Assembly (NCBI GenBank): GCA_965200895.1
Contig: CBDAVM010000002.1
Span: 741,028-805,027, forward strand
Source: Vicinamibacterales bacterium
GTDB taxonomy: Bacteria; Acidobacteriota; Vicinamibacteria; Vicinamibacterales; UBA8438
Length of the DNA stretch: 64,000 bases
Reading direction: 5' to 3'
Positions 46,405 through 53,509 of this stretch are shown one piece after another. The stretch's first letter is position 1; each line of letters starts with the position of its first letter. The position numbers were made by a program, and so were the translations under genes. The notes under the pieces are model-generated. The model saw nothing but the letters and a program-made list of their open reading frames with translations. It was not told the origin of the DNA and searched no databases.

Positions 46405-47532
46405 ATGGGCGACATCGCCTTCACCTGCAGCGGCACCGAGTACACGATCACCGAGTTCGTGGCCTACACCGGCTCCACCACCCTCCGGCAGTTCTGCATA
46501 CGGACGACCCCCAGTCGGATTTCGGCGGCCAACCTCATGGCGCTTGAGGTGACCGTCGGCGACCGGACCTTCATCGACGACGACACGACCACGGACGACG
46601 ACCGGGTGTTGCAAGGCGGCGGGGATGTCTGCCGCGCCCGCGACTACGCGGACGGCACGGACTGGAATCTGGCCAAGGACACGACCGTCACCGTGGTGAT
46701 CGAGTCGCCCACCAGCGACGGCCCGGACGCCCCGACGGGTTTTACGGCCTCGGCGTCGGACGCCACCAGCGTGAAACGCGCCTGGGACGACCCGTCCGAC
46801 AGCGACATCACCAAGTACCAGTACCGCCGCAAGGCCGGTTCCGGCAGCTACGGCAACTGGACCGACATGGGCGGCAGCGGCAGCTCCACCACCAGCTACA
46901 TCGTGACGGGCCTCACCCACGGCACGGAATACACCTTCCAGGTCCGCGCCTATACCACCGCGCGAGGCTCCTCCTCGGTTGAACGGTCGGCGACGGGCGG
47001 CGGGCAGAGCGCGCTGTGGAACGACAGGCGGTTGCAGTCGTTCGCGGGCGCCGACAGCAGCGGCGGTGCGTTCCACGCCAACACGCTCAACATGGACACG
47101 CGGCGGTCGTACAACGTGCTCCGCGACAGCGGACTGAAGATCCAGCCCTGGGCTTCGCAGCGGACGGCGGCGCTGTCGCGCCAACTGAGCCTGGGCGTGG
47201 AGCTCGCCGGCCCGTGGACGCTGCAACTCGCAGCGACGCGGGACTCGGCGCCGATGCTGTCCGCAGCGTCGCTCGCAACATCGCCGGCAAATGTTTCTCG
47301 GAGCGTCTCCAGCAACGCGACCGCCGAGCTGGGGCTTCCAGATCCTGTTCCAGATGATTCCGCAGGTGAACCGGCAGCGCGCGCAGGCGCCGGCAGGGAG
47401 AGATGTCAGGACGGTAGCGCCGAGCGGATCCGTCTGACCTGCGACACCGCGACCAGTTCGTCGAACTCTCGCAGGTCGTCGGGCTTGAAGCCGCCATCGC
47501 GGGACCGGGGGCCGCGGCCGGACAGACGCTGA
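46405..47532 (+). CDS. fibronectin type III domain protein, probably a 5'-truncated fragment; the distal half is doubtfully coding
   Basis: The open frame already reads sensibly from 46330 (SGSLIGYSTHRNPDFGS) with no start codon. FN3: PDAPTGFTASASDATSVKRAWDDP..YQYRRK..YIVTGLTHGTEYTFQVRAYT. Confidence 0.45.
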   Translation: MGDIAFTCSGTEYTITEFVAYTGSTTLRQFCIRTTPSRISAANLMALEVTVGDRTFIDDDTTTDDDRVLQGGGDVCRARDYADGTDWNLAKDTTVTVVIESPTSDGPDAPTGFTASASDATSVKRAWDDPSDSDITKYQYRRKAGSGSYGNWTDMGGSGSSTTSYIVTGLTHGTEYTFQVRAYTTARGSSSVERSATGGGQSALWNDRRLQSFAGADSSGGAFHANTLNMDTRRSYNVLRDSGLKIQPWASQRTAALSRQLSLGVELAGPWTLQLAATRDSAPMLSAASLATSPANVSRSVSSNATAELGLPDPVPDDSAGEPAARAGAGRERCQDGSAERIRLTCDTATSSSNSRRSSGLKPPSRDRGPRPDRR

Positions 47533-47543
47533 TACCGATCCCG

Positions 47544-47864
47544 ATGCTCGGCGCGTTGCTCGGCAGCCTGACCGGCAAGCTCGTCGGGTCAGTTCTCCAA
47601 GACACGCTGGGCGCATCCGCGGCGGCGCTGGCGGACGAGCTTGCCCGGTACGAGCGCTACGCCTTCTCCCGGCTCGACGAGGAGTTCCGCGCCCTCATCG
47701 GGCAGTTGGACGCGTGGTTCGGCAACCTGGAGCGCCTCACCGAGAAGGCCTTCGACCAGCACGCGAACACGGCGCTCCGACTGGCGTCCAGCGTCCGTAT
47801 CGGCGTGCCGGACGCGAAGATACTGCGCACGACCGACGATCTCGACGCCTTCATGCAGGAGTAA
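47544..47864 (+). CDS. hypothetical helical protein (possibly N-terminally truncated)
   Basis: 106-aa ORF. The frame is open upstream to 47418 with no start codon. Ends 3 nt before the next ORF. Confidence 0.35.
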   Translation: MLGALLGSLTGKLVGSVLQDTLGASAAALADELARYERYAFSRLDEEFRALIGQLDAWFGNLERLTEKAFDQHANTALRLASSVRIGVPDAKILRTTDDLDAFMQE

Positions 47865-47867
47865 CCG

Positions 47868-48164
47868 ATGGAGCCGCTGCACAATCCGCTTGAAGGCCTG
47901 TCGCCGCCGCTTGAAGGCCTGTCGCCGGCGCTGTACGTCGCCACCCTGTCAGAGATCGCGCACGCGGACGGCCTGCATCCGGCCGAGCGCGAGCTCATCG
48001 AACAGCACGCTGAGCACTTCGGTGTGGATCTCGACAACTTGCCGGCCGTGCCGCACGACCTGTCGTCGCTCCCGCGCGCGACGCGCGTCCATGCAGGACC
48101 AGCAAGCACCTTGACTGAATTCAGATGTCGCCATAAAATTAGCGTTCACGCTCATTCGCAATAA
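47868..48164 (+). CDS. TerB-like domain fragment
   Basis: YVATLSEIAHADGLHPAERELIEQHAEHFGVD resembles the TerB/DjlA-N helical module. The distal part of the ORF runs through promoter-like AT-rich DNA, so it is probably truncated. Contains a 21-bp tandem duplication. Confidence 0.4.
   Translation: MEPLHNPLEGLSPPLEGLSPALYVATLSEIAHADGLHPAERELIEQHAEHFGVDLDNLPAVPHDLSSLPRATRVHAGPASTLTEFRCRHKISVHAHSQ
48111..48139 (+). promoter_or_regulatory. near-consensus sigma70-type promoter (TTGACT-17 nt-TAAAAT)
   Basis: TTGACT at 48111-48116, a 17-nt spacer, TAAAAT at 48134-48139. It lies 33 nt upstream of the ATPase ATG in locally AT-rich DNA. Confidence 0.55.
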
Positions 48165-48171
48165 AGACGAC

Positions 48172-49374
48172 ATGGCCGAGTTCTCGAACCCGTTTCGCCC
48201 CGGCGCCGGACACGCACCGCCGTACCTGGCCGGCCGTCACGTCGAGCGCGAGGAATTCGTGCAACTGCTGGAGCAGCGCACGATCCTGGACAACCTCGTC
48301 CTGACGGGGCTTCGAGGCATCGGCAAGACCGTGCTGCTCGACTCGTTGAAGCAGCTCGCGCTCGATCGCGGCTGGCTGTGGGTCGGAACCGACCTCTCGG
48401 AAGCGACCAGCGTGAGCGAGGACCACATGGCCACGCGGTTCTGCACGGACCTGTCGCCGCTCACGACCAGCATCGTCGTGGCTACCGAGGAGCGGCGCCG
48501 GGCAGGGTTCGGGACCGAGACCGACGCCATCACGCACACCCTCGGGTACGAGGCCCTGTTCGGCCTCTACCGCCGCACACCCGGCCTCCCGCTCGACAAG
48601 CTCAAGTCGGTTCTTCAGCACGCCTGGAGCGCGCTGTCACAGACGCCGCGCGTCCGCGGCATCGTCTTCGCCTACGACGAGGCGCAGAACCTTGCCGATC
48701 AGCCCACGAAAGACCAGTATCCCCTGTCTCTCGTGCTCGACACCTTCCAGTCGCTGCAGAAGATCGGCCTCCCGCTGCTGCTCGTGCTGACCGGTCTTCC
48801 GACGCTGTTCCCGAAGCTGGTCGACGCCCGGACGTTCTCCGAGAGGATGTTCAGGGTCGTGTTCCTGAAGAGCCTGAACGACAGCGAGAGCGAAGACGCC
48901 ATTCGGAGACCGATCGACGACGCGGCATCTCCTGTGCGTCTGTCCGACGATTCCGTGCAGACGATCATCAAGACGTCCGGGGGTTACCCGTACTTCCTCC
49001 AGTTCATCTGCCGCGAGGTCTACGACGCGTTCATCCAACGGATCGACAAGGGCGAGCGGGCATCCGTTCCCATCGCGGCGATCGAGCGGAAGCTCGACAC
49101 GGACTTCTTTGCCGGGCGCTGGGCGCGCGCCACCGACCGGCAACGGGATCTGCTGTCGGTGATCGCCAGACTCAAGAACTGCGACGACGAGTTCACCGTC
49201 CAGGATGTGGTCGAGGAGTCCAGGCGGTGTCTGGACAAACCGTTCAGCAGCAGCCACGTCAGCCAGATGCTCGTCACGCTGGCCGCCCGAGGCCTGGTGT
49301 ACAAGAACCGCCATGGAAAGTACTCGTTTGCAGTTCCCCTGCTGGGCCGATTCATCACCCGGCAGGCTGCGTAG
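48172..49374 (+). CDS. P-loop NTPase of the AAA_16/Arch_ATPase type with a C-terminal winged-helix
   Basis: NPFRPGAGHAPPYLAGRHVEREEF, Walker A GLRGIGKT, Walker B IVFAYDEAQ, C-terminal LVTLAARGLVYKNRHGKYSFAVPLL. Confidence 0.8.
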   Translation: MAEFSNPFRPGAGHAPPYLAGRHVEREEFVQLLEQRTILDNLVLTGLRGIGKTVLLDSLKQLALDRGWLWVGTDLSEATSVSEDHMATRFCTDLSPLTTSIVVATEERRRAGFGTETDAITHTLGYEALFGLYRRTPGLPLDKLKSVLQHAWSALSQTPRVRGIVFAYDEAQNLADQPTKDQYPLSLVLDTFQSLQKIGLPLLLVLTGLPTLFPKLVDARTFSERMFRVVFLKSLNDSESEDAIRRPIDDAASPVRLSDDSVQTIIKTSGGYPYFLQFICREVYDAFIQRIDKGERASVPIAAIERKLDTDFFAGRWARATDRQRDLLSVIARLKNCDDEFTVQDVVEESRRCLDKPFSSSHVSQMLVTLAARGLVYKNRHGKYSFAVPLLGRFITRQAA

Positions 49375-49419
49375 CAGCATGCCTCGCTGTACATCTTCCG
49401 CCGGTCGAGACCGATCCTC

Positions 49420-49960
49420 ATAACCAAGACCGACACGCTGACCGAGACCCTGATCGAGATCCGCGACGCCATCGCGGACAACGCCTACCCGAACGAGGCC
49501 GCAGTCCGTTCACAGATCGTCAACCGCATCCTCGAACACCTCGACTGGCCCGTCTGCGACCCGAACCTGATCCGCAACGAGTTCCCGCTGCAGAATCGCC
49601 GGGTCGACATCGCGCTGTGTGCGCCCAGCGGCAAGCCGCGCTGCATCATCGAGCTGAAGACGCCCAGCTACGACCTCCGCAGAATCGGCTGCTCGGCGGG
49701 CGACCGGCAACGCTTCGAGTACGCGTTCCACGCCGGCGCGCCGCTCGCCCTCATCACCAACGGCGCGAGCTTCCGCTTCTACTCCGCCCCTGCGGCCGGC
49801 GACTACGAAGAACGCCTCGGCGCCGCCCTCGACATCCCGGACCGACGAACCGGCCGGGATCTCCGCAGCCCTCGACCGGTACCTGTCGTACCAGAACACC
49901 GTGTCGGGACGCGCCGGCGATCACGCCAAGCAGGATGCCTGTGGGTCGTGTGGGCGGCGC
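49420..49960 (+). pseudogene. PD-(D/E)xK nuclease-like protein (HsdR-N-terminal-domain type), start codon lost and frameshifted
   Basis: Same frame as the ATPase, directly after its stop. Reads (ATA)TKTDTLTETLIEIRDAIADNAYPNEAAVRSQIVNRILEHLDWP...RRVDIAL...CIIELK...LITNG. There is no ATG/GTG/TTG start. Sense shifts frame near 49840 (AGISAALDRYLSYQNTVSGRA). Confidence 0.55.
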
Positions 49961-50367
49961 TTGCGGCGTCCAAAGCAGGGTGGAACGCACTGCCTCGACG
50001 GTGACACATTGGCGCAGTGCTCGTGCGCGGTGCATGCCGCTGGCGCGGTCCACGGGCTGCTCGGCTGCCGGACGCCGGAACGTTCACGAGGTCAAGCGGC
50101 GGTGGGCTCGGGGCACCAGCGGACCGGGAGCAGCCCGCGGGGAGCAGTCGCCGCCAGCGATTCCGCCGAGAGTGGTCCGTTCGGCAGACTGACGTTGGCA
50201 ATGGCTTCAGCAAGGGGAACGGCCGGGCGCGCCGACGCCGACTGCAACCCATTACGGCGTTCCGGTCCGCCGCACCCTCCGGACTCCTGGCTGGGCATTC
50301 CGGTGAAATCGATCACCTGTTCCGGCGCAAACCGATCACCTGTCGGAGCGAAGCGACGCGGGATTCA

Positions 50368-50655
50368 TCATGCCTCGTCGCAGTTCCCCGTTCGCGTCGG
50401 CGGTCGGCTCCGCTTTCGCATGGACTCTCCTTTCAGCTCCAGCTTGTAGGCATTGTGCACGAGCCGGTCAAGAATCGCGTCGGCAAGGGTCGGGTCGCCG
50501 ACGACACCGTGCCACTTGTCGACGGGAAGCTGGCCGGTGACGACCGTCGAGCGGACGCCGTGTCAGTCCTCGAGGACTTCGAGCAGGTCGTGTCGGTTCT
50601 CGGCGGTGCAGGGGTCCAATCCCCAGTCGTCGACGACGAGGACCTCGGTCCCCGC
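50368..50655 (-). pseudogene. IstB (IS21 helper) C-terminal fragment with an in-frame TGA
   Basis: EVLVVDDWGLDP..NRHDLLEVLED[55 protein letters not shown]. The Walker A part is absent. It is a different IstB lineage from 15508..16305. Confidence 0.8.
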
Positions 50656-50659
50656 ATCC

Positions 50660-50930
50660 GCTGCCGGAAGCCACCGGCGGGAATCCGCCGCTCACCTACA
50701 CGCTGTCAACCCTGCCGGCCGGCCTGACGTTCAACGCCGCCGACTCCGGCAACACGATCACGGGCGCGCCGACGAACACGCAGACCGCGACCGACTACAC
50801 CTACACGGTCACCGACCACAACAACGACAGTGACTCCGAGACCTTCGATTATCATCGAGACCGACACCGAACCGTCAATCCCCCCGAACCTTCCCAGCCC
50901 GTCGGACCTGACCTTCGTCGTCGAGGCTCC
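50660..50930 (+). pseudogene. fragment of a cadherin-like/putative-Ig (He_PIG-type) adhesin repeat, frameshifted
   Basis: LPEATGGNPPLTYTLSTLPAGLTFNAADSGNTITGAPTNTQTATDYTYTVTDHNNDSDSETF, then a frame change to IIIETDTEPSIPPNLPSPSDLTFVVEAP. Confidence 0.55.
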
Positions 50931-51243
50931 CCGTGCTCGGGAAGGGCGCCATCACGCCGTTCGTGAGAATCCGGCGCTACGGACCCAACCGCCACGCGTT
51001 GCGCACCGGCCTGCGCTTCTCCAAACGAGAGAACGGCCACCGCCGCATGTTCTTCGAGATCTACGGGCGTCACAGAACCCACCCGCTGTACGGCATCGAC
51101 AACTCGATCATCTTCCGCGGCGCGATTCGCCCGAAATCCGTGCTCTCTGAACGACGAGGACGACTCCGCCCTCGTCTTGACACCCCAACTGCCACCGACC
51201 ACAATCCACAGGTCACACGATCGGAAGCAGCTACGTCCCGCCA

Positions 51244-51714
51244 ATGACCGCTGACGAGCAAAAACGCTACGAAGCACGCTTCGCGGCCGAGATGAACGAA
51301 CGACGCGAACGTGAAAACCGGTTCCGGCCGCGCCCGGAACTCGTGCCGCCGGAGTTCTGCAGGAACGACCAGCCGACTCCTGAAGACATCCGCCGTCTGC
51401 GGCCGCGCCTGGATCCAACCCGCACTGGCCCACGAAGTGCGACCGTTGCAGAACGACTCGCCAGCAGCTGTGCCGGGTGGGCCGAACGCCCGACATCAGA
51501 AGAGTTCCACGCTGCAATTCACGCCGCCGAGCCGACCCCGCGACAACGCACCCTGCTTCGCACCTGGACAAGCGAGGCTACCTGGCAAGAACTGATGCAC
51601 GCCTGGGCCGAACACGCGTACACGCTGCGAGAGCTTGTCGCCGCGTTGCACCGCGCGGGAATCACCCGCCCCCGTTGTGCAAGGGTCCTCAACGGGTGGA
51701 CCCTACGCCGATGA
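51244..51714 (+). CDS. hypothetical protein, candidate antitoxin/regulator translationally coupled to the AbiEii-like gene
   Basis: The stop overlaps the downstream ATG (ATGA at 51711). C-terminal HTH-like AYTLRELVAALHRAGITRPRCARVLNGW. Lower GC than the backbone. Confidence 0.5.
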   Translation: MTADEQKRYEARFAAEMNERRERENRFRPRPELVPPEFCRNDQPTPEDIRRLRPRLDPTRTGPRSATVAERLASSCAGWAERPTSEEFHAAIHAAEPTPRQRTLLRTWTSEATWQELMHAWAEHAYTLRELVAALHRAGITRPRCARVLNGWTLRR

Positions 51715-52772
51715 CACGCCAGCCGACCCTGAGCATGCCGGAACCGGCACGACAACTATGGTTGCGAACCCGGGAAACCATCAGGACACACCTCAACCAA
51801 CTGCAAGACGGCCACACGGAATACCGCATCGGAGGCGGTACTGTTCTCGCCTCCCGCTGGAACCATCGCCAAAGCTTCGACATCGACATCACCGTCGATG
51901 AAGGAACCCCGCTTGCCAATCTCGCGGCGACAGGACCAACCACCTTCACAACCGACATCGCACAACTGGGCGGACAGGCCAGATACAACCCGGAACGGAA
52001 CAAGTTCATCATCCAGTTCCACAACGGCGCCATCGACATCTGGGCACGCTCCCCGATACTGAAAAAAGGTCACGAGAAGGAAACGATCGAGGATAAGCCG
52101 GAGATACTCCTGTCAACCGCACAGATCATTCGCGGCAAGCTCGAACGCGCAGACGAGCCGCTCGTGCGCGACGCGTACGACATCCTCAAAGCCGCCGAAT
52201 ACGATCCCGGAAGCCTCGAGGCCGCAATCAACTCGATCCCCGCGACCACTGTCGAGTCCATCGCCAATACCTGGCACTGGCACGGACCGCAACTCGCGGC
52301 CGACGCCGCAACACAACTGCTCGGCACACCCCGACACGAAATCGACGATGCCCGAACACTGGGGCAACGAACCACAATCGCCACAAGAAACGCCCTGTAC
52401 GTCAAGCTGACGATACGCACACAAGACGGAGCACTCGTCATTGAAACCGCAACTGCAGGAGGTCGCCGCGAGACAGGCCAACTACAACCAGGAACCATCG
52501 ACGACACCTTCGAGGCCCGTGGTCTCAACGCCCACCTTTCGACAATGCCGCCCGGCGCCGACGCAATACGCGAGTACGCCAAACAGAGTTGCGGCGAGCA
52601 TCGCAACCACCTCATCTTCAGCGAGACGAACCACACCCCCACCTGCTGGCGGACACGCACAGCATCATTCAACCTGTCTCCCGACACACCCGAGCCACCA
52701 CGTCCTTCATCCGCCTCGACCTTGCCGACAACCCGCCGCCGATCAACGGATCCCCCGAACCACGGCCGCTGA
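51711..52772 (+). CDS. nucleotidyltransferase AbiEii/AbiGii-type toxin family protein
   Basis: YRIGGGTVLASRWNHRQSFDIDITV matches the GGTAL...R.S.DiD signature of AbiEii (DUF1814). 353 aa. Confidence 0.65.
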   Translation: MTRQPTLSMPEPARQLWLRTRETIRTHLNQLQDGHTEYRIGGGTVLASRWNHRQSFDIDITVDEGTPLANLAATGPTTFTTDIAQLGGQARYNPERNKFIIQFHNGAIDIWARSPILKKGHEKETIEDKPEILLSTAQIIRGKLERADEPLVRDAYDILKAAEYDPGSLEAAINSIPATTVESIANTWHWHGPQLAADAATQLLGTPRHEIDDARTLGQRTTIATRNALYVKLTIRTQDGALVIETATAGGRRETGQLQPGTIDDTFEARGLNAHLSTMPPGADAIREYAKQSCGEHRNHLIFSETNHTPTCWRTRTASFNLSPDTPEPPRPSSASTLPTTRRRSTDPPNHGR

Positions 52773-52831
52773 TCCGGTTCGTCAACCCGGCCGGCCTCGA
52801 CGTCGACCTGCTGAACAACCACGAGTGGAGG

Positions 52832-53363
52832 ATGCTCCACCCTGAATCCGGTGCTGCCATGAACTCGCGAATGGCCCCGAAGAACTCGACAGCCGAGTGG
52901 ATCGACAACGAGATCCAGCGACGACTCGTCGAAGAAGACGTGTCGAGAGATGCCCCACTGGCTCCACTCGACCGCTTCCCTGCCGAAAGCGGCTGGTTCG
53001 CCGACGACGACACCGGGCAACCGACACGCCGACCCGGACAACCGTGCGCGGCCCTCAACGCGCTGGTTCACGGCGTCTGCAACGGCTGGAAACGGAAACC
53101 GACCGCACTCGAAGTCGAGACTGCAATCAGAGCCCGCAAACGCACCCAACCGGGCCGACACCATCGCGTGGACGGTCGCCACCGAATCGTCGATCCCCTG
53201 CATCATGGACGCCGAGGCCGACCATGCCTACAGCCTCCAGGATCTCGCATGGTGGATACGCGAGCTCCGAATACCCACCCGGAGAACCATCCACTGGCTC
53301 AACGCGATGGCAGACGCGTGGACACCGAACCGCGGGACCAACCACGACGGCCAAGCGCAATGA
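52832..53363 (+). pseudogene. frameshifted paralog of 51244..51714
   Basis: CNGWKRKPTALEVETAIRARKRTQPG (one frame) followed by TIAWTVATESSIPCIMDAEADHAYSLQDLAWWIRELRIPTRRTIHWLNAM (another frame). This parallels CAGWAERPTSEEFHAAIHAAE...AEHAYTLRELVAALHRAGITRPRCARVLNGW. Confidence 0.45.
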
Positions 53364-53509
53364 ACACGCTCACGCTACCCGAACCAGCAGCTTCGCTCTG
53401 CAGCCTGTGGCAAGCGGCCAGGAATTCCGTCAGTCTCCGGCGGACAATCGCTGCCCTCCGGAGACTGGCAGATGACGGAACCTGGGCCTGACCGCAGCCC
53501 GAATGGAGG

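What the first reader, a model, noticed from the sequence alone, without database searches (positions are those of the whole stretch)
47544..49960. Defence-like module: TerB-like fragment, P-loop ATPase with winged helix, and a decayed PD-(D/E)xK nuclease behind a strong promoter
Seen: a near-consensus TTGACT-17-TAAAAT promoter in locally AT-rich DNA drives a 400-aa AAA_16/Arch_ATPase-type NTPase. Directly after its stop, in the same frame, comes an HsdR-N-like PD-(D/E)xK domain (VDIAL ... IIELK). Its expected start codon reads ATA and it shifts frame near 49840. Upstream lie a helical ORF and a TerB-like fragment. Established: NTPase plus nuclease pairs and TerB-domain proteins are recurrent components of anti-phage and conflict systems. 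Inference: this is a two-gene ATPase-nuclease defence cassette, inserted into or next to a TerB-containing locus, whose effector is now degenerating. The exact family is not one I can name.
Basis: partly seen in the sequence, partly recalled or inferred. Interest (0 to 1): 0.6.

Follow-up and report, generated by a model that had tools for sequence, protein, structure and literature searches.

The report
Solo ORC-like ATPase amid gene wreckage
The sequence features are real, but the ATPase and the broken nuclease are not a pair: the ATPase is a self-contained, widely transferred single gene of unknown role that carries its own promoter and operator, and it sits among unrelated decayed genes.

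Summary
These are the TTGACT-17-TAAAAT promoter, the 400-aa AAA_16 ATPase with a winged helix, and an in-frame HsdR-N-type PD-(D/E)xK remnant. The remnant's start reads ATA where relatives have ATG, and it shifts frame at 49836/49841. Upstream lie a helical ORF and a weakly TerB-like ORF.

The functional reading fails its own refutation test. In 83 homologous ATPase loci from more than 15 bacterial lineages, and in 20 viral contigs, the nuclease never lies nearby. The two nuclease homolog loci examined lack the ATPase. No neighbouring gene family is enriched.

The ATPase is an autonomous unit. Nucleotide homology to relatives begins at the -35 box and ends at the stop codon. Two 10-bp palindromes (yTAAATTTAr), exactly 18 bp apart, overlap the -35 and -10 elements in nearly all relatives. 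This points to autorepression through the protein's invariant C-terminal winged helix. The predicted fold is Orc1/Cdc6-like.

In phages the gene sits like a moron: between portal and protease genes, or between antiterminator Q and terminase. Here it truncates a TerB/DUF533-like gene. Everything around it is a pseudogene. Its biological role is unproven; accessory defence or exclusion is plausible.

The parts
47403..47864 (+). Decayed copy of a 158-aa helical protein family. The family corresponds to the C-terminal third of PADLOC candidate PDC-M09B. The ancestral ATG at 47403 is followed by an in-frame TAG at 47415-47417. The only intact ORF restarts at 47544 (106 aa).
   Evidence: PADLOC PDC-M09B at E 1.6e-20, matching profile positions 372-479 of 480 only. 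Homologs are about 158 aa. The upstream frame is homologous but interrupted by the stop. The intact ortholog L093:6001-6477 matches PDC-M09B positions 323-479 at E 4e-46.
47868..48164 (+). The 5' two-thirds of a TerB/DUF533-like gene, the partner of the 158-aa gene. Homology to the intact 127-aa ortholog ends at about 48090. The last ~24 codons are read from junction DNA and ATPase-promoter DNA. It contains a perfect 21-bp tandem duplication at 47886-47927.
   Evidence: Pairwise alignment with L093:6480-6863. The missing C-terminal 52 aa are found nowhere in the window. Pfam TerB E 0.18. Ortholog DUF533 E 2.1e-5, below cutoff. Duplication reported as D13.
48091..48110 (.). Left junction between the truncated TerB-like gene and the ATPase cassette.
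   Evidence: Homology to L093 stops at about 48090. Homology to other ATPase loci starts at the TTGACT box at 48111.
48111..48142 (+). Cassette promoter and operators. The -35 box TTGACT is at 48111-48116 and the -10 box TAAAAT at 48134-48139. Palindrome 1, CTGAATTCAG, is at 48115-48124. Palindrome 2, ATAAAATTAG, is at 48133-48142. The two start exactly 18 bp apart.
   Evidence: Promoter scan. The element is conserved upstream of relatives across phyla. Of 81 loci, 77 have at least one and 61 at least two TAAATTTA-like sites within 150 nt upstream. Spacing is 18 bp in 56 cases. Background is 0.026 sites per 162 nt.
48172..49374 (+). Intact 400-aa Orc1/Cdc6-like AAA+ ATPase with a C-terminal winged helix. 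It has Walker A GLRGIGKT and Walker B FAYDEAQ. It belongs to PHROG_6841.
   Evidence: AAA_16. PHROG_6841 at E 1.2e-60. AF2 pLDDT 81. Top Foldseek PDB hits are Orc1/Cdc6 and the archaeal AAA+ protein 2fna. More than 7,600 homologs; the best 120 are mostly ~400 aa (352-410) and 72-100% identical. There are 3,485 50%-identity representatives, and almost all full-length ones are 380-420 aa.
49420..49969 (+). Pseudogene of a small standalone HsdR-N-type PD-(D/E)xK nuclease. The start codon is ATA instead of ATG. There is a +1 frameshift at about 49840, and the C-terminus has diverged or been lost.
   Evidence: Pfam HSDR_N_2 and HSDR_N. Nine homologs at 52-64% identity. ATA aligns with ATG. Frame 1 to frame 2 jump at 49836/49841. 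The same lesions occur in L001-L004.
50420..50690 (-). The 3' remnant of an IS21-family istB gene with an in-frame stop. It bounds the nuclease remnant.
   Evidence: The minus-strand translation reads ...VLVVDDWGLD...[25 protein letters not shown]...[24 protein letters not shown]. tblastn hits lie under annotated istB genes on 845 plasmids.

Best explanation
The region is a patchwork of unrelated accessory genes. Only one of them is still intact.

The intact part is a self-contained single-gene cassette spanning 48111-49374. It consists of a sigma-70-type promoter, two 10-bp palindromic operators that overlap the -35 and -10 elements, and a 400-aa Orc1/Cdc6-like AAA+ ATPase ending in a winged helix.

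Proposed mechanism (inferred, not shown): the protein binds the two palindromes through its winged helix, as a dimer or ATP-dependent oligomer. This occludes RNA polymerase and holds its own expression low, which is negative autoregulation. ATP binding and hydrolysis (Walker A, Walker B and conserved arginines are all invariant) switch its DNA-bound oligomeric state.

The unit spreads horizontally as one gene across many bacterial phyla, plasmids and temperate phages. In phages it sits as a moron. Its most likely role is therefore an accessory, host- or prophage-beneficial function such as exclusion of or defence against invading DNA. That role is unproven.

In this Acidobacteriota (sponge-symbiont-type) genome, the cassette landed in or replaced the 3' end of a TerB/DUF533-like gene. 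That gene belongs to a conserved two-gene pair, the 158-aa PDC-M09B-C-terminal-like gene plus the 127-aa TerB-like gene, which is itself decayed here. The HsdR-N nuclease remnant downstream is an independent dead gene, followed by an IS21 istB remnant. It is not the ATPase's effector.
For: Cassette boundaries: the DNA alignment of the window with three loci from two other phyla is conserved only from the -35 box to the stop codon.

Operators: sites are present in 77 of 81 loci. Spacing is exactly 18 bp in 56 cases, about 70-fold (≈2 sites vs 0.026 per 162 nt) over background. The window's only TAAATTTA-like site in 64 kb is at this promoter. The same pair occurs upstream of copies in viral contigs with GC from 0.38 to 0.69. 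The window's site 1 differs from the consensus by a symmetric change (CTAAATTTAG to CTGAATTCAG) that keeps the palindrome. Both palindromes lie upstream of the expected transcription start, so they act as DNA rather than RNA.

DNA-binding domain: residues in the predicted recognition helix (S361, H362, Q365, M366) and wing (K378-G382) are invariant in 42 sequences. A distant relative's C-terminus hits the ArsR and MarR HTH families.

Fold: top PDB hits are Orc1/Cdc6 bound to origin DNA and the archaeal AAA+ protein 2fna.

Solo status: no conserved neighbour. Architecture stays at about 400 aa down to 30% identity, with no effector fusions.

Mobility: relatives at 58-88% identity occur in Vicinamibacterales, Binatia, Spirochaetia, Dehalococcoidia, Gammaproteobacteria, Planctomycetota, Omnitrophota and others. 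Distant homologs occur on 103 plasmids.

Phage placement: in L098 the gene lies on the opposite strand between the portal and head-protease genes. In Acinetobacter baumannii prophages it lies between the early region and HNH/terminase. 57 related Acinetobacter phages matching this terminase region, none detected in the ATPase tblastn.

Decay of the flanks.
Against: No experiment or direct computation shows that the protein binds the palindromes. The second palindrome contains the -10 hexamer, so part of its conservation could reflect promoter function alone.

No effector domain or partner was found, so how a 400-aa ATPase would exclude invaders is unknown.

Immediate neighbours are mostly metabolic genes rather than defence islands. 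PADLOC has no model for the family. Both weaken the defence reading.

No terminal repeats or target-site duplications flank the cassette, so the means of insertion is unknown.

Gene calls for the neighbour survey were heuristic.
Confidence: 0.6

Rival explanations
1. The ATPase and the HsdR-N nuclease form one two-gene defence operon, with an ATPase sensor or motor and a PD-(D/E)xK effector. The effector is now decaying.
For: The two are adjacent, on the same strand and even in the same frame, downstream of one promoter. No terminator is predicted between them. NTPase-nuclease pairs are common in defence systems (general knowledge).
Against: None of the 83 ATPase loci or 20 viral loci has the nuclease. 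The two nuclease homolog loci examined lack the ATPase. Cassette homology ends at the stop codon. Only nine nuclease homologs were found, against thousands of ATPases. The region upstream of the nuclease start shows no homology to the upstream regions of its relatives.
Confidence: 0.04
2. The ATPase is a replication initiator and the palindromes are its origin. This would be an Orc1/Cdc6-plus-ORB-type module left behind by an integrated plasmid or virus.
For: The fold matches Orc1/Cdc6 bound to origin DNA. Repeats lie next to its own gene, as in archaeal origins. Distant homologs lie near parAB or a Rep gene on actinobacterial plasmids.
Against: Chromosomal copies sit alone between metabolic genes with no other replicon or mobile-element genes. 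The repeats are only two 10-bp sites placed exactly on the -35 and -10 elements, with no extended AT-rich unwinding region. Plasmid pCPRO01 has a separate annotated replication initiation protein. The prophages carrying the gene have their own primosomal and helicase-loader genes.
Confidence: 0.08
3. The ATPase is an ATP-dependent transcription factor with a cellular regulon, analogous to archaeal Orc1-2 in the DNA-damage response. It would have no role in conflict with mobile elements.
For: It has a wHTH, an AAA+ domain and an operator at its own promoter. There is precedent for an Orc1/Cdc6 paralog acting as a global regulator (PMC6061795, abstract). Its neighbours are mostly housekeeping genes.
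Against: No other TAAATTTA-like site occurs in the 64-kb window. Patchy cross-phylum distribution at 60-88% identity, plus presence as an accessory gene in phages and plasmids, is unusual for a regulator tied to a host regulon.
Confidence: 0.2
4. The conserved upstream element is only a strong promoter. There is no operator and no autoregulation.
For: The -35 box overlaps palindrome 1 and the -10 hexamer lies inside palindrome 2.
Against: Palindrome 1 extends into the spacer, where sigma-70 promoters are not constrained. The two sites are copies of the same palindrome (for example GACTAAATTTAGT twice in L050) at a fixed 18-bp offset. The window's variant keeps dyad symmetry through a double change. 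Some loci carry three or more copies, with a separate TTGACA further upstream.
Confidence: 0.1

Closest known systems
Archaeal Orc1/Cdc6 proteins, including the Orc1-2 DNA-damage regulator (PDB 2qby, 1fnn, 2v1u)
   Same: Three-part build of AAA+ core, helical lid and C-terminal winged helix. These are the top structural matches. They bind sequence-specific repeats located next to their own gene. Orc1-2 acts as a transcription regulator (PMC6061795).
   Different: Only 11-16% sequence identity and TM-scores of 0.35-0.45. No Cdc6 or Orc family profile hit. The protein here is bacterial, phage or plasmid-borne. Its sites are two 10-bp palindromes on a sigma-70 promoter rather than ORB elements flanking an unwinding region. 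There is no MCM or replication context.
Archaeal AAA+ ATPase family PF01637 / SSO1545 (PDB 2fna)
   Same: Best TM-score (0.45-0.50) and similar size. Distant family members give sub-threshold ATPase_2 hits. Function is likewise unknown.
   Different: The window protein does not reach the PF01637 threshold. No operator architecture has been described for that family, to my knowledge.
ORC/Cdc6-clade ATPases of BREX-type systems (BrxC N-terminal ATPase-wHTH, BrxD)
   Same: An ORC/Cdc6-like AAA+ ATPase followed by a wHTH, used in anti-invader systems. BrxD is a standalone ATPase (PMC12839542).
   Different: Those act within multi-gene loci containing PglZ, a methyltransferase and other components. 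This protein has no conserved neighbours, and no PADLOC BREX model matches it.
Phage morons (autonomous promoter-gene units inserted between phage genes)
   Same: It has its own promoter. It is inserted between or opposite structural or late genes. It is present in some members of a phage group and absent in others.
   Different: 'Moron' describes a genomic placement, not a function. Most copies found here are chromosomal.
Standalone HsdR N-terminal PD-(D/E)xK proteins (PF13588, PF04313)
   Same: The downstream remnant matches both models and keeps the D...E-x-K motif.
   Different: It is inactivated by a lost start codon and a frameshift. It has no helicase or other type I restriction-modification components.
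PADLOC candidate system PDC-M09 (protein B)
   Same: The 106-aa ORF and its 158-aa orthologs match the C-terminal third of PDC-M09B.
   Different: The N-terminal ~320 residues of PDC-M09B are absent, and no PDC-M09A hit among the ORFs scanned. The local copy carries a premature stop.

Membership tests
   The nuclease is next to the ATPase in 0 of 83 ATPase loci and 0 of 20 viral loci. The two nuclease loci examined lack the ATPase.
   In PADLOC v2 the best ATPase hit is E 0.012, and the nuclease frame has no hit.
AAA_16 (PF13191) P-loop ATPases | Profile score above the gathering cutoff, with intact Walker A and Walker B motifs. | tested here: met
   34.0 bits against a cutoff of 32.6. G49, G51, K52, T53, D169 and E170 are invariant in the 42-sequence alignment.
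Orc1/Cdc6 initiator family | Sequence-profile membership in Cdc6/Orc families. | tested here: not met
   No Cdc6 or Orc family in the Pfam or NCBIfam hits. PDB sequence search finds nothing below E 0.09.
Orc1/Cdc6 initiator family | A fold of AAA+ core, lid and C-terminal winged helix. | tested here: met
   Top Foldseek PDB hits are 2qby_A, 1fnn_A and 2v1u_A at E 2e-10 to 7e-9. The model has pLDDT 81.
Orc1/Cdc6 initiator family | Acts at a replication origin together with a helicase or helicase loader. | not testable with these tools
   The context argues against it: the gene stands alone among metabolic genes.
Autoregulated repressor-operator unit | Dyad-symmetric sites overlapping the gene's own core promoter, conserved together with the gene. 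| tested here: met
   Sites are present in 77 of 81 loci, with 18-bp spacing in 56 cases, against a background of 0.026 per 162 nt. The same holds in viral copies.
Autoregulated repressor-operator unit | The protein binds the sites and represses transcription. | not testable with these tools
   Only inferred, from the invariant recognition helix and wing residues.
HSDR_N_2 / HSDR_N PD-(D/E)xK nuclease domain | Profile hits above cutoff and the catalytic D...E-x-K motif. | tested here: met
   34.5 and 29.3 bits against cutoffs of 25 and 25.1. D78, E93 and K95 fall in nearly invariant columns.
HSDR_N_2 / HSDR_N PD-(D/E)xK nuclease domain | An intact, translatable gene. | tested here: not met
   ATA replaces ATG. 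There is a frameshift at 49836/49841.
TerB domain proteins | A significant TerB-clan profile match. | tested here: inconclusive
   TerB E 0.18 at 12.5 bits against a cutoff of 24.4. The intact ortholog hits DUF533 at 24.6 bits against a cutoff of 29.6.
PADLOC PDC-M09 | Full-length protein B together with protein A. | tested here: not met
   Only profile positions 372-479 of 480 of protein B are matched, and no protein A hit was found.
Transposon, IS element or integron cassette (as the vehicle of the ATPase) | Terminal inverted repeats, target-site duplication, an attC site or a linked recombinase. | tested here: not met
   No flanking repeats. No conserved neighbouring recombinase. Homology ends at the stop codon.

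The most novel reading that the evidence does not exclude
The 400-aa Orc1/Cdc6-like ATPase, with its portable dual-palindrome operator, is a previously unrecognised single-gene immunity or exclusion module. It is kept silent by autorepression. On a trigger it would oligomerise on DNA in an ATP-dependent way to block replication or transcription of an invader. It would have spread as a moron through phages, plasmids and chromosomes of more than 15 bacterial lineages.
Probability: 0.25. Interest if true: 0.7.

Novelty: new variant of a known kind. Interest (0 to 1): 0.42.

Why it matters
As a proposed defence operon, the finding does not hold. Recording this prevents a false ATPase-nuclease system from entering catalogues.

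What remains is a very large, tightly conserved family that no model in the libraries searched (Pfam, NCBIfam, PADLOC) covers beyond AAA_16, apart from function-unknown PHROG_6841. The family has thousands of members (3,485 clusters at 50% identity). It behaves as a portable one-gene unit with a defined cis element.

This makes the family directly testable. The operator sequence, the spacing and the candidate DNA-contact residues are all specified. A cultivable host, Acinetobacter baumannii, carries a prophage-borne copy.

If the gene proves to be an exclusion or defence gene, it would add an effector-less ORC-like mechanism to bacterial immunity. If it is a regulator, it would be a bacterial counterpart of archaeal Orc1-2.

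Tried and rejected
- PADLOC, NCBIfam and PDB sequence searches gave no name for the ATPase.
- I searched for a conserved partner gene in three ways: tblastn of window proteins against loci, all-against-all clustering of flank ORFs, and Pfam plus PADLOC scans of 150 immediate neighbours. The only recurrence was synteny within Vicinamibacterales (Uma2, a dynamin-like gene, a 186-aa ORF).
- I looked for effector fusions in longer distant relatives and found none. One is a tandem ATPase duplication.
- The missing 3' end of the TerB-like gene is absent from the rest of the window.
- No terminal repeats or target-site duplications flank the cassette. The window has no Rfam hits and no tRNAs.
- An empty-site comparison in Acinetobacter phages failed. 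Only the right flank is homologous, so exact insertion ends could not be defined.
- A palindrome test on six plasmid homologs was only partly supportive. Three of six were significant, and at least one gene start is mis-annotated.
- Five literature searches found no paper on this family or on PDC-M09.
- I considered stop-codon readthrough or an ATPase-nuclease fusion and rejected it: nearly all of the best 120 relatives are ~400 aa, and the aligned loci stop at the same position.
Full report
**1. Checking the observation**

- A promoter-like site lies at 48111-48139: TTGACT, a 17-nt spacer, then TAAAAT, matching 10 of 12 consensus positions. It is one of three such sites in 6 kb, where shuffles give 0.4. 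It sits in a local GC dip, 0.585 against about 0.69.
- The ORF at 48172-49374 encodes a 400-aa protein that passes the Pfam AAA_16 threshold.
- Directly after its TAG stop, in the same frame, the translation matches HSDR_N_2 (E 2.4e-8) and HSDR_N (E 9.3e-7). The VDIAL...IIELK motif falls in nearly invariant columns of the homolog alignment.
- That frame has no ATG, GTG or TTG start. The ATA at 49420-49422 aligns with the ATG of both homolog loci.
- tblastn with four homologs jumps from frame 1, ending at 49836, to frame 2, starting at 49841.
- The same lesions are present in four independently assembled metagenome contigs of this organism, L001-L004. They are therefore not errors of a single assembly.
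- The upstream 106-aa and 98-aa ORFs exist. The TerB label for the 98-aa ORF is weak: E 0.18, below the cutoff.

**2. The ATPase and the nuclease are not a pair**

The ATPase family is very large. More than 7,600 homologs were scored, and the best 120 are mostly ~400 aa (352-410), 72-100% identical. A sensitive search found 3,485 cluster representatives. Almost all full-length ones are 380-420 aa, down to about 30% identity.

I fetched several sets of loci:

- 80 loci from species-representative genomes: Vicinamibacterales, Binatia, Spirochaetia, Dehalococcoidia, Gammaproteobacteria, Gemmatimonadota, Planctomycetota, Omnitrophota, Nitrospinales, Latescibacterota and others. Many are sponge-symbiont MAGs.
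- Three further loci by exact-protein look-up.
- 20 viral contigs.

The results all point the same way:

- tblastn of the reconstructed nuclease, the 106-aa ORF and the 98-aa ORF hits only copies of this same locus and the two nuclease homolog loci.
- Clustering of flank ORFs finds no shared neighbour apart from local synteny among closely related Vicinamibacterales.
- Pfam and PADLOC scans of 150 immediately adjacent ORFs show no enrichment. The maximum is 5 of 150, generic methyltransferases; Uma2 appears 3 times.
- The nuclease has only nine detectable homologs. The two contexts examined contain IS elements, an HNH gene and Uma2, but no ATPase.

The shared frame across the TAG stop is a coincidence, because relatives end at the same residue.

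**3. What the ATPase unit is**

*Boundaries.* Nucleotide alignment of the window with loci from two other phyla is conserved only from the -35 box to the stop codon. The gene travels with its promoter and nothing else.

*Operators.* Printing the upstream 110 nt of all loci revealed a shared element. It consists of two copies, sometimes three, of a 10-bp palindrome yTAAATTTAr.

- Of 81 loci, 77 have at least one site within one mismatch of the TAAATTTA core in the 150 nt upstream, and 61 have two or more.
- Successive sites are exactly 18 bp apart in 56 cases.
- Background in the same loci is 0.026 sites per 162 nt.
- The first palindrome starts inside the -35 box and runs into the spacer. The second contains the -10 hexamer.
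- In the window the sites are CTGAATTCAG (48115-48124) and ATAAAATTAG (48133-48142), also 18 bp apart. The first differs from the consensus by a symmetric pair of changes that keeps the dyad.
- The window has no other such site in 64 kb.
- The same pair precedes copies in viral contigs with GC from 0.38 to 0.69.
- Both sites lie upstream of the expected transcription start, so they act as DNA.

*Protein.* The AF2 model (pLDDT 81) ends in a winged helix: helices 343-353 and 360-372, then a β-hairpin at 376-386. The invariant residues include S361, H362, Q365 and M366 in the second helix and K378-G382 in the wing. A distant relative's C-terminus hits the ArsR and MarR HTH models. Structure search puts Orc1/Cdc6 bound to origin DNA and the archaeal AAA+ protein SSO1545 at the top, ahead of STAND NTPases. 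Walker A, Walker B and several arginines are invariant.

*Inference.* I infer, but have not shown, that the protein represses its own promoter by binding the two palindromes, and that ATP controls its oligomeric, DNA-bound state. Three of six distant plasmid-borne homologs have their own, different, significant palindromes upstream. This is weakly consistent with co-evolution of operator and protein.

**4. Biological role**

The family matches PHROG_6841, function unknown, at E 1.2e-60.

In viral contigs the gene sits like a moron:

- In L098 it lies on the opposite strand between the portal and head-protease genes.
- In L111 it follows the portal gene.
- In Acinetobacter baumannii prophages (L103-L110) it lies after the replication and RusA genes and before HNH/terminase.
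- Fifty-seven related Acinetobacter phages share the terminase block. The ATPase tblastn against the same phage collection found none of them. In the annotated relative vB_AbaSI_1, this is the variable region downstream of antiterminator Q.

Distant homologs at 28-30% identity are solitary 'ATP-binding protein' genes on 103 plasmids, mostly actinobacterial.

This placement suggests an accessory function useful to the carrier. Exclusion of, or defence against, other mobile DNA is the most natural guess. ORC/Cdc6-clade ATPases with a wHTH do recur in anti-invader systems (PMC12839542).

Three observations count against that guess. Chromosomal copies are mostly flanked by metabolic genes. No effector domain or partner exists. 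PADLOC has no model for the family.

A purely regulatory role, as for archaeal Orc1-2 (PMC6061795), or a relic initiator-origin module remain possible. The latter is disfavoured. The carrying elements have their own replication genes, and the repeats map exactly onto promoter elements.

**5. The surroundings are a graveyard of accessory genes**

- The 106-aa ORF is the remainder of a 158-aa gene. Its ancestral ATG at 47403 is followed by a TAG at 47415-47417. The family corresponds to the C-terminal third of PADLOC candidate PDC-M09B.
- In an intact locus (L093) this gene is followed by a 127-aa gene with a sub-threshold DUF533/TerB-like hit.
- The window's 98-aa ORF is that partner. Homology stops at about 48090, its last ~24 codons are read from junction and cassette-promoter DNA, and the missing 52 residues are nowhere in the window.
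- The ATPase cassette therefore replaced the 3' end of the TerB-like gene.
- Downstream, the nuclease pseudogene (49420-49969) is followed by an IS21 istB 3' remnant with an in-frame stop on the minus strand. After that comes an AbiEii-like gene.
- No terminal repeats or target duplications mark the cassette.
- The host is an Acidobacteriota genome of the sponge-symbiont type.

**6. Verdict**

The item of residual interest is the autonomous ORC-like ATPase with its portable dual operator. It is one more member of a very large uncharacterised family and a new variant of known kinds (ORC/Cdc6-type AAA+-wHTH proteins, autoregulated morons). I score interest as moderate at 0.42. The architecture is clean and testable, but the function is unknown and this window's copy is ordinary within its family.

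Noticed in passing
window 51244-52772: A possible two-gene module on the + strand. A 156-aa ORF with a weak HTH_62 hit (E 0.014) overlaps by 4 nt a 353-aa ORF with a near-threshold AbiEii nucleotidyltransferase-toxin hit (Pfam E 2.7e-4, 21.4 bits against a cutoff of 22.5; PADLOC AbiEii E 0.0012). It may be a divergent type IV toxin-antitoxin or Abi pair.
   Followed up: partly
window 50420-50690 (minus strand): The 3' remnant of an IS21-family istB helper ATPase with an in-frame stop (…[25 protein letters not shown]…). The plus-strand ORF there (50017-50727) is its antisense shadow.
   Followed up: yes
window 47886-47927: A perfect 21-bp tandem duplication (CCGCTTGAAGGCCTGTCGCCG twice) inside the TerB-like ORF, giving PLEGLSP twice. 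The intact ortholog in L093 has one copy.
   Followed up: partly
window 50700-53400: This stretch has lower GC (0.57-0.65 against about 0.70) and strongly negative GC skew (down to -0.40). This is consistent with foreign DNA. Together with 47400-50700 it forms a roughly 6-kb island of accessory and decayed genes between a vWA/fn3 gene block and Fer4/alanine-racemase-type genes.
   Followed up: no
window 46405-47532: A 375-aa ORF with one fn3 domain (residues 108-190, E 3e-11). Its C-terminal ~45 codons overlap, in another frame, the start of the decayed 158-aa gene, and the whole region after the fn3 domain has no family hit. The 3' part of the called gene may therefore not be genuine coding sequence.
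   Followed up: no
L007, L008, L016, L019 (Vicinamibacterales loci): In these close relatives the ATPase sits in a shuffled hotspot. The hotspot holds one or two Uma2 (PD-(D/E)xK, DUF820) genes and a dynamin-like GTPase, which hits the PADLOC LeoA and LeoBC models. The order of these genes differs between genomes.
   Followed up: partly
P0125, P0128 (homologs of the nuclease): Several of the nine small HSDR_N homologs diverge abruptly in their C-terminal halves, as if frameshifted. This family may be decaying in other genomes of the same metagenome project too.
   Followed up: no
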